A DNA stretch of 64,000 nucleotides from Escherichia coli (GTDB lineage Bacteria; Pseudomonadota; Gammaproteobacteria; Enterobacterales; Enterobacteriaceae). The position numbers and the translations under genes are program-made. The notes under the pieces were generated by a model. That model was not told where the DNA came from and made no database searches. It saw nothing but the letters and a program-made list of their open reading frames with translations. The stretch lies in the NCBI RefSeq assembly GCF_024502345.1, contig NZ_JALDNN010000001.1. One strand, given 5' to 3'. Shown here piece by piece: positions 1-5,677 of this stretch; the first letter of the stretch is position 1, and every line of letters begins with the position of its first letter.

Positions 1-464
1 GTCATCGAAACCGACATTTTATCCAGCGGGATCTGGTCGAACAGGACTTTCATATCTTCCACGGTGTCGATAGCGACGCCCGCTTTGCCGACGTCACCCG
101 CCACGCGTGGGTTATCGGAGTCGTAGCCACGGTGGGTGGCAAGGTCAAACGCAACGGAAAGACCTTTTTGCCCGGCGGCCAGGTTACGGCGATAAAAAGC
201 GTTGGACTCTTTTGCTGTTGAAAAACCAGCATACTGACGGATGGTCCACGGTTGGGCGGTATACATAGTGGCACGCGGGCCACGAACGTAGGGCGGCAAA
301 CCAGGAAGGGTACCTGTCACCTCCAGATTATCGAGATCGGCTTCGGTATACAGCGGCTTGATGGCGATCCCTTCCGCGGTTTGCTGAACCAGCGAGTCGA
401 CAGTTTTCTCCCGACGGCTCAATTCCTTGTTGGCAAGCTGTTGCCACTCCTGCTCGTTAGACAT
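1..464 (-). CDS. scpA: methylmalonyl-CoA mutase, N-terminal part only (start codon at 464; gene runs off the window start)
   Basis: Minus-strand frame open to the window edge, so absent from the ORF track; hand translation from ATG (complement of 462-464) gives [63 protein letters not shown]..., the Sbm/ScpA N-terminus. Confidence 0.8.
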
Positions 465-2857: not shown

Positions 2858-4090
2858 ATGGCAAAGGTATCGCTGGAGAAAGACAAGATTAAGTTTCTGC
2901 TGGTAGAAGGCGTGCACCAAAAGGCGCTGGAAAGCCTTCGTGCAGCAGGTTACACCAACATCGAATTTCACAAAGGCGCGCTGGATGATGAACAATTAAA
3001 AGAATCCATCCGCGATGCCCACTTCATCGGCCTGCGATCCCGTACCCATCTGACTGAAGACGTGATCAACGCCGCAGAAAAACTGGTCGCTATTGGCTGT
3101 TTCTGTATCGGAACAAACCAGGTTGATCTGGATGCGGCGGCAAAGCGCGGGATCCCGGTATTTAACGCACCGTTCTCAAATACGCGCTCTGTTGCGGAGC
3201 TGGTGATTGGCGAACTGCTGCTGCTATTGCGCGGCGTGCCGGAAGCCAATGCTAAAGCGCACCGTGGCGTGTGGAACAAACTGGCGGCGGGTTCTTTTGA
3301 AGCGCGCGGCAAAAAGCTGGGTATCATCGGCTACGGTCATATTGGTACGCAATTGGGCATTCTGGCTGAATCGCTGGGAATGTATGTTTACTTTTATGAT
3401 ATTGAAAACAAACTGCCGCTGGGCAACGCCACTCAGGTACAGCATCTTTCTGACCTGCTGAATATGAGCGATGTGGTGAGTCTGCATGTACCAGAGAATC
3501 CGTCCACCAAAAATATGATGGGCGCGAAAGAGATTTCGCTAATGAAGCCCGGCTCGCTGCTGATTAATGCCTCGCGCGGTACTGTGGTGGATATTCCGGC
3601 GCTGTGTGATGCGCTGGCGAGCAAACATCTGGCGGGGGCGGCAATCGACGTATTCCCGACGGAACCGGCGACCAATAGCGATCCATTTACCTCTCCACTG
3701 TGTGAATTCGACAACGTCCTTCTGACGCCACACATTGGCGGTTCGACTCAGGAAGCGCAGGAGAATATCGGCCTGGAAGTTGCGGGTAAATTGATCAAGT
3801 ATTCTGACAATGGCTCAACGCTCTCTGCGGTGAACTTCCCGGAAGTCTCGCTGCCACTGCATGGTGGTCGTCGTCTGATGCACATCCACGAAAACCGTCC
3901 GGGCGTGCTAACTGCGCTGAACAAAATCTTCGCCGAGCAGGGCGTCAACATCGCCGCGCAATATCTACAAACTTCCGCCCAGATGGGTTATGTAGTTATT
4001 GATATTGAAGCTGACGAAGACGTTGCCGAAAAAGCGCTGCAGGCAATGAAAGCTATTCCGGGTACCATTCGCGCCCGTCTGCTGTACTAA
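2858..4090 (+). CDS. serA: D-3-phosphoglycerate dehydrogenase
   Basis: 410-aa ORF; NAD-binding GIIGYGHIGTQ motif and C-terminal ACT domain; recognised as SerA. Confidence 0.95.
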   Translation: MAKVSLEKDKIKFLLVEGVHQKALESLRAAGYTNIEFHKGALDDEQLKESIRDAHFIGLRSRTHLTEDVINAAEKLVAIGCFCIGTNQVDLDAAAKRGIPVFNAPFSNTRSVAELVIGELLLLLRGVPEANAKAHRGVWNKLAAGSFEARGKKLGIIGYGHIGTQLGILAESLGMYVYFYDIENKLPLGNATQVQHLSDLLNMSDVVSLHVPENPSTKNMMGAKEISLMKPGSLLINASRGTVVDIPALCDALASKHLAGAAIDVFPTEPATNSDPFTSPLCEFDNVLLTPHIGGSTQEAQENIGLEVAGKLIKYSDNGSTLSAVNFPEVSLPLHGGRRLMHIHENRPGVLTALNKIFAEQGVNIAAQYLQTSAQMGYVVIDIEADEDVAEKALQAMKAIPGTIRARLLY

Positions 4091-4111
4091 TTCCCCTTCT
4101 CTGAAAATTAA

Positions 4112-4142
4112 CGGGCAGGTCACTGACTTGCCCGTTTTTTTA
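4112..4142 (+). terminator. rho-independent terminator of serA
   Basis: GC-rich hairpin CGGGCAGGTCACTGACTTGCCCG followed by TTTTTTT, 20 nt after the serA stop. Confidence 0.7.
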
Positions 4143-4271
4143 TCCCTTCTCCACACCGTTGCCGCGTTGCGCATTCTACTTTGCGAGTCTGCTCCAGAAA
4201 ATAAATCAAACTCAGATCAATGCGTTGTGTTTATTTAATGGGGATTTACGATGGCGGGACAGCATGGGGCT

Positions 4272-4410
4272 GTAACGGTAAAGCCCTCACCGAAGCGAGG
4301 GCTTAAAGGAGAAGGGTTATGATGCGACTTGTCATCATACTGATTGTACTGTTACTGATAAGTTTCGGAGCTTATTAACAGTCAGTCTCAGGGGAGGAGT
4401 CATCCTCCCT
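4272..4410 (-). ncRNA. Sib-like antisense RNA (antitoxin), copy 1; boundaries approximate
   Basis: Inferred from Ibs/Sib architecture: on the minus strand the palindrome AGCCCTCGCTTCGGTGAGGGCT followed by TTACCGTT (complement of 4279-4300) looks like the Sib terminator, overlapping the ibs 5' UTR. Confidence 0.4.
4319..4378 (+). CDS. Ibs-family type I toxin peptide (MMRLVIILIVLLLISFGAY, 19 aa)
   Basis: ATGATG start 7 nt after AAGGAG; extremely hydrophobic 19-aa product; position in the serA–fau intergenic region matches the known ibsC/sibC locus. Confidence 0.6.
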   Translation: MMRLVIILIVLLLISFGAY

Positions 4411-4663
4411 TACCCTTACTCACTAAATTAGGTCAAAGAATCAACGATGTCAATCAGGGCGATGCGGGGTGCATCGCCCTGAACCGAACTTTTTGATAGC
4501 CACTTCATCGCCCACGTTTACTGCCGTAATAGATCCTTTTTCCCAAAAATTATCTCTGTTTTGCATGGGGTTTTTCGAGCACGCTCGAAGAAAAGATTTA
4601 AAGGTAGATCAATGCGTTGTGGTTATTTAAAGAGAGCTTACGATAGCTGGGCAGCATGGGGCT

Positions 4664-4802
4664 GTAACGGTAAAGCCCTCACCGAAGCGAGGGCTTGAAG
4701 GAGAAGGGTTATGATGCGACTTGCCATCATACTGATTGTACTGTTACTCATAAGTTTCCCAGCTTATTAACAGTCAGTCACAGGGGAGGAGCAATCCTCC
4801 CT
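4664..4802 (-). ncRNA. Sib-like antisense RNA (antitoxin), copy 2; boundaries approximate
   Basis: Same inferred architecture as copy 1; palindrome at 4671-4692. Confidence 0.35.
4711..4770 (+). CDS. Ibs-family type I toxin peptide, variant (MMRLAIILIVLLLISFPAY, 19 aa)
   Basis: Paralogous 19-codon ORF in repeat copy 2; differs from copy 1 at V5A and G17P. Confidence 0.55.
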   Translation: MMRLAIILIVLLLISFPAY

Positions 4803-4870
4803 TACCCTTACTCACTAAATTAGGTTAAAGAATCAACGATGTCAATCAGGGCGATGCAGGTGTATCGCCC

Positions 4871-5419
4871 TTACCACTCCCAGACTTTCGACGGTGTAAC
4901 CACCGCAGGAAGAGGGATATCCCACTCTTCAACGGGGAGTTTTTCCACCAACTGACAATCATGCGCATAACCCACCGGTTGCGTTTTATAGTGCTGCCAG
5001 TTTTGTAAGGTCCGATCATAAAAACCACCGCCCATTCCCAGGCGCTGACCGTACTCATCAAAGGCGACCAGCGGTGTGATCAGCACGTCTAATCGGGAAA
5101 GGGGTAGCACGTCACGCACATCCAGTTTTGGCTCATGGATTTTCAACCTGTTCATCACCAGTTCGCTTTGCGGATGGTAATTCAGGAACAGCAAATTACC
5201 GGCACTAAAGGGATGCAAAACTGGAAGATATACGCGCTTACCGGCGCGCCAGAGTTGTTCTATGAGTGGCTGGGTGTCGAGTTCGCCATCAAAAGAGAGG
5301 AATACAGCGACCGTATGTGCCATCACCACCGGGGGATAAGTCATCATCCGGGTAGCGGCTTGTTGACCCATTTCCTGCTGTTGTTCCGGCGTTAACGCAC
5401 GACGACGTTGCCGAATCAT
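4871..5419 (-). CDS. fau: 5-formyltetrahydrofolate cyclo-ligase
   Basis: ORF 4871..5617; start set at MIRQRRRALTPEQ (complement of 5417-5419), giving 182 aa, downstream of the 6S RNA 3' end. Confidence 0.88.
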   Translation of the reverse strand: MIRQRRRALTPEQQQEMGQQAATRMMTYPPVVMAHTVAVFLSFDGELDTQPLIEQLWRAGKRVYLPVLHPFSAGNLLFLNYHPQSELVMNRLKIHEPKLDVRDVLPLSRLDVLITPLVAFDEYGQRLGMGGGFYDRTLQNWQHYKTQPVGYAHDCQLVEKLPVEEWDIPLPAVVTPSKVWEW

Positions 5420-5481
5420 TTTGCGGATTTCTTGTCGGGATAATGTCAGTGGGAGTTCTGGTAGTTGCGTCATGGCTGGTG

Positions 5482-5677
5482 CCAGATAAGAAGGGAATCT
5501 CCGAGATGCCGCCGCAGGCTGTAACCCTTGAACCCTTGGTTCAAGGTGAATGTGTCGTCGCAGTTTTAAGGCTTCTCGGACGGACCGAGCATGCTCACCA
5601 ACCGCGGAGCGCCACATTCTTGTGGTATGAAATATCGGCTCAGGGGACTGGCCCGCTTGCGAACATCTCAGAGAAAT
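5482..5677 (-). ncRNA. ssrS: 6S RNA
   Basis: Reverse complement reads AUUUCUCUGAGAUGUUCGCAAGCGGGCCAGUCCCCUGAGCCGAUAUUUCAUACCACAAGAAUGUGGCGCUCC...GGCAUCUCGGAGAUUCCCU, matching 6S RNA; lies between zapA and fau as expected. Confidence 0.9.

What the first reader, a model, noticed from the sequence alone, without database searches (positions are those of the whole stretch)
4200..4870. Tandem pair of Ibs/Sib type I toxin–antitoxin repeats with two variant toxin peptides between serA and fau
Two direct repeats of roughly 390 bp periodicity, about 90% identical, each carry (i) a 19-codon ORF for an extremely hydrophobic peptide (MMRLVIILIVLLLISFGAY at 4319-4378; MMRLAIILIVLLLISFPAY at 4711-4770), (ii) an AAGGAG RBS, and (iii) a palindrome (AGCCCTCACCGAAGCGAGGGCT) that on the opposite strand reads as hairpin + UUACCGUU, i.e. 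a terminator for a fully overlapping antisense RNA. This is the Ibs toxin / Sib antisense RNA architecture. From memory, K-12 MG1655 has a single copy (sibC/ibsC) at this locus, so the copy number and the G17/P17 and V5/A5 peptide variants may be strain-specific. If both are expressed, each Sib RNA should discriminate its own ibs mRNA.
Basis: partly seen in the sequence, partly recalled or inferred. Interest (0 to 1): 0.5.

Follow-up and report, generated by a model that had tools for sequence, protein, structure and literature searches.

The report
Two tandem ibsC/sibC toxin–antitoxin copies
Between serA and fau this E. coli carries two side-by-side copies of the well-known Ibs/Sib small-toxin/antisense-RNA module where K-12 has one; about a third of complete E. 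coli genomes have the same arrangement and it is already annotated, so it is real but ordinary.

Summary
A 289-nt direct repeat (4180-4468 / 4572-4860) is 89% identical with 392-nt spacing. Each copy carries a 19-codon hydrophobic ORF, an AAGGAG ribosome-binding site and a hairpin palindrome. On the minus strand each copy matches Rfam SIB_RNA at 134 and 137 bits (threshold 56).

Both copies are SibC-type: 95.7% and 96.5% identical to K-12 SibC, at most 81% to SibA/B/D/E. Their ends and predicted fold match the annotated 141-nt K-12 RNA. K-12 does have only one unit here.

The arrangement is not strain-specific. The 801-bp region is 100% identical in E. coli 2014C-3011 and at least 99% identical in 1479 complete genomes. 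The inter-unit junction is present in 1870 of 5426 genomes (34%), including O157:H7. RefSeq already annotates both toxin genes. Published work reports variable Ibs copy number between strains (4 to 7).

The G17 and P17 residues lie at the most variable Ibs position and in the TRD1 antitoxin recognition loop. The second recognition domain, TRD2, is nearly identical in the two copies. That is inference only.

Verdict: already known, low interest.

The parts
4110..4146 (+). serA intrinsic terminator (12-bp stem followed by a T-run). It marks the left boundary of the intergenic region.
   Evidence: Terminator scan; the serA ORF ends at 4090.
4180..4482 (.). Repeat unit 1, the serA-proximal ibs/sib module.
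   Evidence: the repeat finder family D1; alignments A1.
4225..4252 (+). Putative ibs-1 promoter: -35 TTGTGT at 4225-4230, 16-nt spacer, -10 TACGAT at 4247-4252. A conserved CAGC at 4260-4263 lies near the likely transcription start. This is inference.
   Evidence: The -10-like element and the CAGC are conserved upstream of all five K-12 ibs genes and both window copies. Han 2010 mapped an ibsC 5' end downstream of conserved promoter elements and used a 159-nt mRNA. The simple consensus scan did not pick this site up.
4281..4304 (-). Sib-1 terminator hairpin: 10-bp stem with a UUCG loop, followed by UUUACC. On the + strand the same palindrome sits in the ibs-1 5' UTR just upstream of the SD.
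   Evidence: MFE fold; the annotated K-12 sibC 3' end maps 4 nt past the stem; Han 2010 refers to 'the sibC termination hairpin'.
4306..4311 (+). ibs-1 Shine-Dalgarno AAGGAG, 7 nt before the ATG. It is complementary to the single-stranded anti-SD of Sib (TRD2 core, Sib +107..+113).
   Evidence: Sequence; TRD2 definition in Han 2010; the fold shows this segment unpaired.
4319..4378 (+). ibs-1 ORF, 19 codons plus stop: MMRLVIILIVLLLISFGAY. RefSeq WP_071524576.1, annotated 'IbsC'.
   Evidence: Translation; PGAP annotation of the identical locus.
4277..4417 (-). Sib-1 antisense antitoxin RNA, 141 nt. The ends are inferred from collinearity with K-12 sibC (b4446).
   Evidence: 95.7% identical to K-12 SibC with no gaps; same MFE structure, z = -5.96; Rfam hit.
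4425..4453 (-). Sib-1 promoter: -35 TTGACA at 4453-4448, 17-nt spacer, -10 TAATTT at 4430-4425, transcription start at 4417.
   Evidence: Sequence. These bases correspond to positions 1-29 of the Rfam model. The 7-nt distance from the -10 fits the annotated K-12 5' end.
4454..4482 (.). Perfect 12-bp inverted repeat with a 5-nt loop at the right end of unit 1. It is a copy of the fau-terminator hairpin and probably insulates the two units. The insulating role is inference.
   Evidence: Inverted repeats I1 and I2; alignment to 4846-4870.
4483..4571 (.). Unique 89-nt spacer between the units. It is absent from one-copy genomes.
   Evidence: No similarity to K-12 sib loci or to the rest of the window. 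A junction query is covered at 80% or more in 1870 of 5426 genomes. The spacer is 16.7% diverged from the O157:H7 allele.
4572..4870 (.). Repeat unit 2, the fau-proximal ibs/sib module.
   Evidence: the repeat finder family D1; alignments.
4617..4644 (+). Putative ibs-2 promoter: -35 TTGTGG at 4617-4622, 16-nt spacer, -10 TACGAT at 4639-4644. This is inference.
   Evidence: In register with the unit 1 promoter.
4673..4696 (-). Sib-2 terminator hairpin, which is also the ibs-2 5' UTR palindrome.
4698..4703 (+). ibs-2 Shine-Dalgarno AAGGAG.
4711..4770 (+). ibs-2 ORF: MMRLAIILIVLLLISFPAY. RefSeq WP_001387035.1, annotated 'Ibs family toxin'.
4669..4809 (-). Sib-2 antisense antitoxin RNA, 141 nt.
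   Evidence: 96.5% identical to K-12 SibC; MFE fold z = -4.53; Rfam 137 bits.
4817..4845 (-). Sib-2 promoter: -35 TTGACA at 4845-4840, -10 TAATTT at 4822-4817, transcription start at 4809.
4846..4870 (.). Imperfect hairpin immediately after the fau stop codon. It is the fau terminator and the right end of unit 2.

Best explanation
The region holds two tandem, intact copies of the SibC-type ibs/sib type I toxin-antitoxin module at the chromosomal locus where K-12 carries the single ibsC/sibC pair.

Mechanism, by homology with the characterised K-12 system and not shown here: each unit is transcribed on the + strand from a weak promoter into an ibs mRNA of about 160 nt, which encodes a 19-residue membrane-depolarising peptide. 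On the minus strand a strong promoter (perfect TTGACA -35) makes a 141-nt Sib RNA. That RNA is fully complementary to the ribosome-binding site and the whole ORF. Sib first contacts the ibs mRNA through the P5 apical loop (TRD1, opposite codons 15-18) or through the single-stranded anti-SD linker (TRD2). Pairing then spreads, translation is blocked and the duplex is probably cleaved by RNase III.

The two copies differ at 8 of 141 Sib positions. Three of these are in TRD1, including the dinucleotide that gives Gly17 versus Pro17. Only one is in TRD2, and it is a G-U wobble in one direction. Because either TRD alone suffices in K-12, I infer (probability about 0.6) that each Sib can also repress the other unit's ibs mRNA through TRD2. 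The pair would then act as a partly redundant, cross-protected double module and not as two insulated systems.

The two-copy state is a common, old E. coli polymorphism and not a peculiarity of one strain.
For: - Rfam RF00113 hits both copies at 134 and 137 bits against a gathering score of 56.
- Both Sib copies align without gaps to the annotated K-12 sibC (b4446, 141 nt). They are 95.7% and 96.5% identical to it, but at most 81% identical to SibA/B/D/E.
- The MFE structure is identical to that of K-12 SibC, with z-scores of -6.0 and -4.5.
- Seven of the 8 inter-copy differences fall in unpaired positions (P = 0.0026).
- ORFs, SD, start codons, the -35 TTGACA and the terminator hairpins are intact in both units.
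- PGAP annotates both CDS as IbsC or Ibs family toxin in the 100%-identical strain 2014C-3011 and in O157:H7.
- K-12 has one unit. The two-copy junction is found in 1870 of 5426 complete genomes, and 1479 genomes are at least 99% identical over the full 801 bp.
- The TRD definitions and the 'either domain suffices' result come from Han 2010, PMC2943612.
- TRD duplex energies: TRD1 cognate -37.7 and -38.3 versus cross -21.0 and -24.3 kcal/mol; TRD2 cognate -39.4 and -41.7 versus cross -39.5 and -35.3. Non-cognate K-12 pairs give -17 to -27.
- Toxicity, membrane depolarisation and RNase III involvement come from reviews PMC8309996 and PMC4147584.
- Strain-variable Ibs copy number is reported in PMC2887945 and PMC7232551.
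Against: - No expression or toxicity data exist for these two alleles. V5 and the C-terminal residues are reported to matter for IbsC toxicity. The A5 and P17 changes in copy 2, or G17 in copy 1, could therefore weaken the toxin.
- The ibs promoters are weak matches to consensus, and the generic scan did not find them.
- The cross-repression inference rests on short-duplex thermodynamics. K-12 SibD and SibE also share long complementary runs next to TRD2, yet Sib repression in K-12 is described as cognate-only except for ibsA. A single mismatch at +113 could matter more than the energy suggests.
Confidence: 0.9

Rival explanations
1. The two modules are fully insulated. Each Sib represses only its own ibs mRNA, as reported for most K-12 Sib/ibs pairs. 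Specificity would be set by the TRD1 loop difference (UCC versus UGG at +49..51) together with the +113 difference in TRD2.
For: Sib RNAs in K-12 are reported to repress only cognate ibs mRNAs, except for ibsA. The TRD1 cross-duplex energies (-21.0 and -24.3 kcal/mol) are as poor as those of the K-12 SibC/SibD non-cognate pair. The one TRD2 difference lies in the C107-C113 segment that Han 2010 changed to retarget SibC.
Against: TRD2 differs at one nucleotide only. In the Sib-1/ibs-2 direction that position is a G-U wobble with no energy loss (-39.5 versus -39.4). In the other direction the loss is about 6 kcal/mol, leaving the duplex far stronger than any K-12 non-cognate pair. Han 2010 found that changing only one TRD did not abolish repression.
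Confidence: 0.3
2. One of the two copies is a decaying, non-functional duplicate. The toxin would be attenuated by A5/P17 or G17, or the promoter weakened, and the copy kept only by linkage.
For: V5 and the C-terminal residues are reported as important for IbsC toxicity. Unit 2 is 4% diverged between the window and O157:H7, against 0.2-0.8% in the flanking genes. Many lineages, including K-12, have only one unit.
Against: Both units keep an intact ORF, SD, Sib -35 and -10, terminator and all Sib stems. Seven of 8 differences are in loops. Pro at position 17 is the native residue of K-12 IbsB and IbsE, and position 17 is Q/P/S/A/P across the family. The single-copy unit of Escherichia sp. MOD1-EC7003 encodes exactly the copy 2 peptide.
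Confidence: 0.1
3. The repeat is a non-coding intergenic repeat (REP- or BIME-like) or a chance similarity, and the short ORFs are accidental.
For: Nineteen-codon ORFs are common by chance in any sequence (one search lists dozens of short ORFs).
Against: The covariance-model hits have E about 1e-28. The units are 95-96% identical to an experimentally characterised K-12 gene pair. Curated RefSeq protein names are attached to both ORFs.
Confidence: 0.01

Closest known systems
ibsC/sibC of E. coli K-12 MG1655 (b4665/b4446), serA-fau intergenic region
   Same: Same chromosomal locus and same orientation. The Sib RNA is the same length (141 nt) and has the same predicted fold. Identity is 95.7% and 96.5%. 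The terminator hairpin, anti-SD and -35/-10 are identical. The peptides differ from IbsC only at residue 17 (copy 1) or residues 5 and 17 (copy 2).
   Different: There are two units separated by an 89-nt spacer that K-12 lacks entirely. The TRD1 loop trinucleotide at +49..51 is UCC or UGG where K-12 has GCU. The K-12 unit looks like a mosaic: left flank as unit 1, right flank and TRD2 as unit 2, and a unique Ser17 codon.
Tandem ibsD-sibD/ibsE-sibE (yqiK-hldE) and ibsA-sibA/ibsB-sibB (yegL-mdtA) pairs of K-12
   Same: The architecture is the same: two head-to-tail ibs/sib modules in one intergenic region, 335-376 bp apart, against 392 bp here.
   Different: Those pairs are more diverged from each other (SibD/E 90%, SibA/B 78%) and differ at 3-4 positions in TRD2. 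The window pair is 94.3% identical with a single TRD2 difference. They also sit at different loci and belong to a different Sib subtype (at most 81% identity).
Two-copy ibsC-type locus annotated in RefSeq E. coli genomes (for example 2014C-3011 NZ_CP027591 and O157:H7 Z910 NZ_CP062752)
   Same: 2014C-3011 is 100% identical over 801 bp. Both CDS are annotated (WP_071524576.1, WP_001387035.1).
   Different: O157:H7 carries a different copy 2 allele (MMRLVIILIVLLLISLPAY, WP_100635201.1) and a spacer 16.7% diverged from the window's. PGAP does not annotate the sib RNA genes in these records.
Other tandemly duplicated chromosomal type I TA loci (ldrA-C/rdlA-C; zorO-orzO/zorP-orzP of EHEC)
   Same: A small hydrophobic toxin and an antisense RNA antitoxin, duplicated in tandem in one intergenic region, with copy number that varies between strains.
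   Different: The families are unrelated in sequence. In those systems the antitoxin pairs with the 5' UTR, whereas Sib overlaps the entire ORF and the RBS.

Membership tests
Ibs/Sib type I toxin-antitoxin (Rfam RF00113 SIB_RNA; NCBI 'Ibs family toxin') | Antisense RNA gene matching the SIB_RNA covariance model above its gathering score | tested here: met
   134.2 and 137 bits against a gathering score of 56, over the full model 1-147, on the minus strand.
Ibs/Sib type I toxin-antitoxin (Rfam RF00113 SIB_RNA; NCBI 'Ibs family toxin') | An 18-19-codon, highly hydrophobic ORF on the opposite strand, lying with its SD entirely inside the Sib-transcribed segment | tested here: met
   ORFs at 4319-4378 and 4711-4770 lie inside Sib-1 (4277-4417) and Sib-2 (4669-4809). 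GRAVY is 2.46 and 2.27 against 1.98-2.59 for K-12 IbsA-E. The consensus MM[RK]L.IIL..LL..SF.AY is kept.
Ibs/Sib type I toxin-antitoxin (Rfam RF00113 SIB_RNA; NCBI 'Ibs family toxin') | Sib promoter, a roughly 140-nt transcript and a Rho-independent-type terminator hairpin collinear with a mapped family member | tested here: met
   At sequence level only: TTGACA-17-TAATTT, a start 7 nt downstream, a 10-bp UUCG hairpin and a 3' end collinear with annotated K-12 sibC.
Ibs/Sib type I toxin-antitoxin (Rfam RF00113 SIB_RNA; NCBI 'Ibs family toxin') | Conserved Sib secondary structure (P1 closing stem, P2, P5 loop = TRD1, P7, single-stranded anti-SD = TRD2) | tested here: met
   The MFE structures of both copies are the same as for K-12 SibC, and no shuffle folds as well. 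Seven of 8 differences are unpaired.
Ibs/Sib type I toxin-antitoxin (Rfam RF00113 SIB_RNA; NCBI 'Ibs family toxin') | Peptide is toxic or membrane-depolarising when over-expressed, and toxicity is relieved by the Sib RNA | not testable with these tools
   Shown only for K-12 alleles in the literature. The G17 and A5/P17 alleles have not been tested.
Ibs/Sib type I toxin-antitoxin (Rfam RF00113 SIB_RNA; NCBI 'Ibs family toxin') | Abundant antisense transcripts are actually produced | not testable with these tools
SibC subtype (orthologue or paralogue of K-12 ibsC/sibC) | Closest K-12 paralogue is SibC, and the locus is serA-fau | tested here: met
   95.7% and 96.5% identity to SibC against 64-81% to the other four K-12 Sib RNAs. 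The flanks are serA and fau.
Cognate-only Sib/ibs recognition (mutual discrimination of paralogues) | Both TRD1 and TRD2 differ enough between paralogues to prevent cross-pairing | tested here: inconclusive
   TRD1 differs at 3 positions, and the cross-duplex is 14-17 kcal/mol weaker than the cognate one. TRD2 differs at 1 position, with a loss of 0 or 6 kcal/mol. This is an in-silico test only.

The most novel reading that the evidence does not exclude
The two SibC-type units may be a natural intermediate in the evolution of antitoxin specificity. TRD1, and with it toxin residue 17, has already diverged, while TRD2 is still shared. That would give asymmetric cross-repression: Sib-1 would repress ibs-2 fully, and Sib-2 would repress ibs-1 more weakly. 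The spacer and unit 2 are 5-20 times more diverged between E. coli lineages than the flanking genes, and the units show gene-conversion-like mosaics. Together these would point to long-standing diversifying selection or recurrent recombination on this module, and away from neutral duplication and loss.
Probability: 0.25. Interest if true: 0.35.

Novelty: already known. Interest (0 to 1): 0.12.

Why it matters
It matters little as a discovery. The family, its mechanism, its tandem organisation and its strain-variable copy number are all published, and this exact two-copy locus is annotated in thousands of RefSeq genomes.

Three modest points are useful. First, K-12 under-represents the locus, because about a third of E. 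coli carry a second SibC-type module. Second, the natural copy 1/copy 2 pair differs in TRD1 but barely in TRD2, so it is a ready-made test of the two-domain recognition model of Han et al. Third, automated annotation omits the sib RNA genes in these genomes.

Tried and rejected
- The primary description of the family (Fozo et al. 2008) is not held in the library, under either the PubMed id or my recalled PMC id. The supplements of Fozo 2010 that would list Ibs coordinates per strain are not held either. I therefore found no sentence in the literature that names two copies specifically at serA-ygfA. The 'already known' verdict rests on RefSeq annotation and on published per-strain Ibs counts.
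- The generic sigma-70 and terminator scan found only the serA terminator and two unconvincing promoter-like sites. It missed the sib promoters (-10 TAATTT scores 3 of 6) and the Sib terminators (poor U-tract). Promoters and ends were assigned instead by collinearity with K-12 annotation.
- I looked for the origin of the 89-nt spacer. BLAST with short words found nothing in the window or in the three K-12 sib loci. There is only a weak in-register similarity to the serA-terminator region: 33 of 89 matches against 22.2 +/- 4.2, with 0.9% of other offsets doing as well. This is suggestive, not proven.
- I tried to settle which came first, duplication or deletion. One exact 20-mer scan of the species-representative genomes returned only 3 loci. 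One was a two-copy E. coli and two were single-copy unnamed Escherichia species. E. albertii, E. fergusonii and Salmonella were not recovered, so the ancestral state stays open.
- Enrichment of inter-copy differences in TRD1 plus TRD2 (4 of 8) is not significant (P = 0.16).
- NCBIfam and Pfam scans were not run, because the peptides (19 aa) are below the tools' minimum length.
Full report
**Observation**

The window is an E. coli chromosome segment with the gene order rpiA-serA-[intergenic]-fau-ssrS-zapA-ygfB-pepP. The serA-fau intergenic region contains one family of direct repeats. The two copies lie at 4180-4468 and 4572-4860, are 289 nt long and 89% identical, and start 392 nt apart. With a 1-nt indel the homology continues through a hairpin to 4482 in copy 1 and about 4870 in copy 2.

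- the palindrome AGCCCTCACCGAAGCGAGGGCT (4282-4303; 4674-4695);
- AAGGAG (4306-4311; 4698-4703);
- a 19-codon ORF (4319-4378, MMRLVIILIVLLLISFGAY; 4711-4770, MMRLAIILIVLLLISFPAY).

The description is accurate in every checked detail.

**Identity**

On the minus strand both copies match the Rfam SIB_RNA model (RF00113) over its full length. The scores are 134.2 and 137 bits against a gathering score of 56, with E about 1e-28.

I fetched the three K-12 MG1655 sib loci from NC_000913.3, where the RNAs are annotated, and aligned all five K-12 Sib RNAs with the two window copies. Both window copies align without gaps to the 141-nt SibC (b4446). This places Sib-1 at 4417->4277 and Sib-2 at 4809->4669. 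They are 95.7% and 96.5% identical to SibC, 94.3% identical to each other, and 64-81% identical to SibA, B, D and E. Both are therefore SibC-type.

The first ~36 positions of the Rfam model are in fact the promoter and the leader just upstream of +1. TTGACA (4453-4448 / 4845-4840) is followed by 17 nt and then TAATTT, and the annotated 5' end lies 7 nt further on. The model also stops short of the terminator. As a result the Rfam coordinates are shifted by about 36 nt relative to the transcript.

Folding each 141-mer gives the same minimum-energy structure as K-12 SibC:
- a P1 closing stem;
- the P2 hairpin;
- a P5 hairpin whose 8-nt loop holds positions +48-55;
- the P7 hairpin;
- a single-stranded CUCCUU(U/C)AA anti-SD linker;
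- a 10-bp UUCG terminator hairpin followed by UUUACC.

The z-scores are -6.0, -4.5 and -5.5, and no shuffle folds as well.

**How it most likely works**

This section rests on homology and nothing in it was shown here. In K-12, Ibs peptides depolarise the membrane and stop growth when over-produced. Sib RNAs, which are made constitutively, prevent this.

Han et al. (PMC2943612) defined two independent target-recognition domains in SibC. TRD1 spans +46..+68, the P5 loop, and targets the ORF. TRD2 spans +99..+115, the J1/7 anti-SD, needs the P1 stem, and targets the translation-initiation region. Either one alone is sufficient. Loss of both abolishes repression even though about 100 nt of complementarity remain. 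Pairing then spreads, translation initiation is blocked, and RNase III probably cleaves the duplex.

All these elements are intact in both window units.

The ibs promoters are only inferred: TTGTGT/TTGTGG, 16 nt, TACGAT, then a conserved CAGC. The -10-like element and the CAGC are conserved upstream of all seven ibs genes compared, but the generic scan did not find them.

**Differences between the two copies**

The Sib genes differ at 8 of 141 positions: +17, +18, +30, +50, +51, +61, +86 and +113. Seven of the 8 are unpaired in the predicted structure, where 35% of positions are unpaired (hypergeometric P = 0.0026). Both copies therefore keep every stem, which argues against decay of either.

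Three differences are in TRD1. Positions +50 and +51 are the antisense of codon 17 and produce Gly17 (GGA) versus Pro17 (CCA); K-12 has Ser17 (AGC). Position 17 is Q, P, S, A and P in K-12 IbsA-E. The 'variant peptides' thus sit at the known hypervariable position of the family, and Pro is native to IbsB and IbsE.

Only one difference (+113) is in TRD2.

Short-duplex energies, in kcal/mol:

| Domain | Cognate | Cross | K-12 non-cognate pairs |
|---|---|---|---|
| TRD1 | -37.7 / -38.3 | -21.0 / -24.3 | -16.6 to -27.7 |
| TRD2 | -39.4 / -41.7 | -39.5 (Sib-1 on ibs-2, G-U wobble) / -35.3 (Sib-2 on ibs-1) | -17 to -27 |

Under the rule that either TRD suffices, I expect cross-repression through TRD2. 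It is an inference with roughly 0.6 probability. SibD and SibE in K-12 also share long complementary runs next to TRD2, yet Sib repression in K-12 is described as cognate-only except for ibsA, so one mismatch in the C107-C113 core may matter more than its energy suggests.

**Is it strain-specific or novel?**

No. The 801-bp region 4080-4880 is 100% identical in E. coli 2014C-3011 and at least 99% identical in 1479 complete genomes. A 181-nt query across the unit 1/spacer/unit 2 junction is covered at 80% or more in 1870 of 5426 genomes (34%). In the remaining genomes that match, only 41 nt of the hairpin region is hit, as expected for one-copy loci such as K-12. All but one of 7296 matching places are chromosomal.

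PGAP annotates both toxin genes in these records: WP_071524576.1 as 'IbsC' and WP_001387035.1 as 'Ibs family toxin'. O157:H7 carries a third allele, WP_100635201.1.

Published counts of Ibs genes vary by strain: K-12 5, O157:H7 EDL933 6, Sakai 7, S. boydii 7, S. sonnei 7, E. fergusonii 7 and AIEC NRG857c 4. [quoted passage not shown]

Its own refutation criterion for novelty is also met, because sequenced strains carry the identical two-copy arrangement.

**Evolutionary notes**

The 89-nt spacer (4483-4571) has no detectable homologue in the window or in K-12 sib loci. In the register of the repeat it is weakly similar to the serA-terminator region: 33 of 89 matches against 22.2 +/- 4.2, with 0.9% of other offsets doing as well. 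This hints at an old 392-bp tandem duplication whose non-functional part has decayed.

The single K-12 unit is a mosaic. Its left flank and upstream region match unit 1. Its TRD2, P2 loop and right flank match unit 2. Its codon 17 is unique.

Two unnamed Escherichia species recovered from the species-representative genomes have a single unit. In one, the body matches window unit 2 (A5, P17). In the other, residues 16-17 match O157 unit 2 (L16, P17). Unit 2 is therefore the likely orthologue of the single-copy gene. The polarity, duplication in E. coli versus repeated loss, is not settled.

Between the window and O157:H7 the divergence along the region is as follows:

| Segment | Divergence |
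|---|---|
| Flanking genes (serA, fau, ssrS, zapA) | 0-0.8% (third codon positions, serA and fau only: 0.7-2.5%) |
| Unit 1 | 0.7% |
| Unit 2 | 4.0% |
| Spacer | 16.7% |

This is a sharp local hot spot. At 5 of the unit 2 differences, O157 unit 2 carries the unit 1 base, a pattern that looks like gene conversion.

**Verdict**

The region is a tandem pair of SibC-type ibs/sib type I toxin-antitoxin modules. It is a known, annotated and widespread E. coli polymorphism relative to K-12.

What remains is modest. The natural pair differs in TRD1 but hardly in TRD2, which makes it a clean test of the two-domain recognition model. The spacer and unit 2 show unexplained excess divergence.

Interest is 0.12 and the novelty class is 'already known'.

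Noticed in passing
window 4483-4870 (spacer and unit 2), compared with L003: There is a local divergence hot spot. Against O157:H7 the spacer differs by 16.7% (15 of 90) and unit 2 by 4.0%. Unit 1 differs by 0.7% and serA, fau, ssrS and zapA by 0-0.8%. At 5 of the unit 2 differences, O157 unit 2 carries the unit 1 base, which looks like gene conversion. At least three spacer haplotype classes exist among E. coli: at least 99%, about 90% and about 87% identical to the window.
   Followed up: partly
window 4454-4482 and 4846-4870: The right end of unit 1 carries a perfect 12-bp palindrome (TCAGGGCGATGC-GGGGT-GCATCGCCCTGA). It is a copy of the hairpin that follows the fau stop codon, where the palindrome is imperfect, and it directly abuts the Sib -35 box. 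The repeat therefore includes a duplicated fau terminator, which may insulate the two units in both directions.
   Followed up: partly
window 4091-4179 versus 4483-4571: In the register of the 392-nt period, the region upstream of unit 1 (the serA terminator) and the inter-unit spacer share 33 of 89 identities. Other offsets give 22.2 +/- 4.2, and 0.9% of them reach 33. The spacer may be a decayed copy of the serA-terminator region from an old duplication.
   Followed up: partly
L002 / L004 (K-12 serA-fau region) versus window 4180-4870: The single K-12 ibsC/sibC unit is a mosaic of the two window units. Its upstream part matches unit 1. Its TRD2, P2 loop and 3' flank match unit 2. Its codon 17 (AGC) is unique. 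This is consistent with recombination between the repeats.
   Followed up: partly
window 4303-4453 and 4695-4845 (Rfam hit coordinates): The Rfam RF00113 model starts at the sib promoter (TTGACA...TAATTT, model positions 1-29; the first ~36 positions lie upstream of +1) and ends before the terminator hairpin. Its hit coordinates are therefore offset by about 36 nt from the annotated 141-nt transcript, 4417-4277 and 4809-4669.
   Followed up: yes
L001, L002, L003 (RefSeq PGAP annotations): PGAP annotates the ibs CDSs but no sib ncRNA genes in these genomes, including a K-12 MG1655 assembly. The curated NC_000913.3 record does carry sibC. This is an annotation gap for the antitoxin genes.
   Followed up: no
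window 4871-5617 and 5494-5677: The longest minus-strand ORF ending at the fau stop codon (248 aa, 4871-5617) runs through the 6S RNA gene ssrS (5494-5677). RefSeq annotates fau as 603 nt (4871-5473) in PGAP records and 549 nt in NC_000913.3. This is the known ssrS-fau tandem arrangement, and the fau start differs between annotations.
   Followed up: no
window 62299-62369 (+): This is the only other Rfam gathering-level hit in the 64-kb window besides 6S and the two Sib RNAs: a tRNA gene. It was not examined.
   Followed up: no
L007 (E. coli SCPM-O-B-8794): This E. coli genome, one of three hits in the species-representative collection, also has two units, about 391 nt apart. It is only about 89% identical to the window over serA 3'-unit 1-spacer, and its spacer resembles the O157 type. 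It appears to be an unusually divergent allele of the locus.
   Followed up: no
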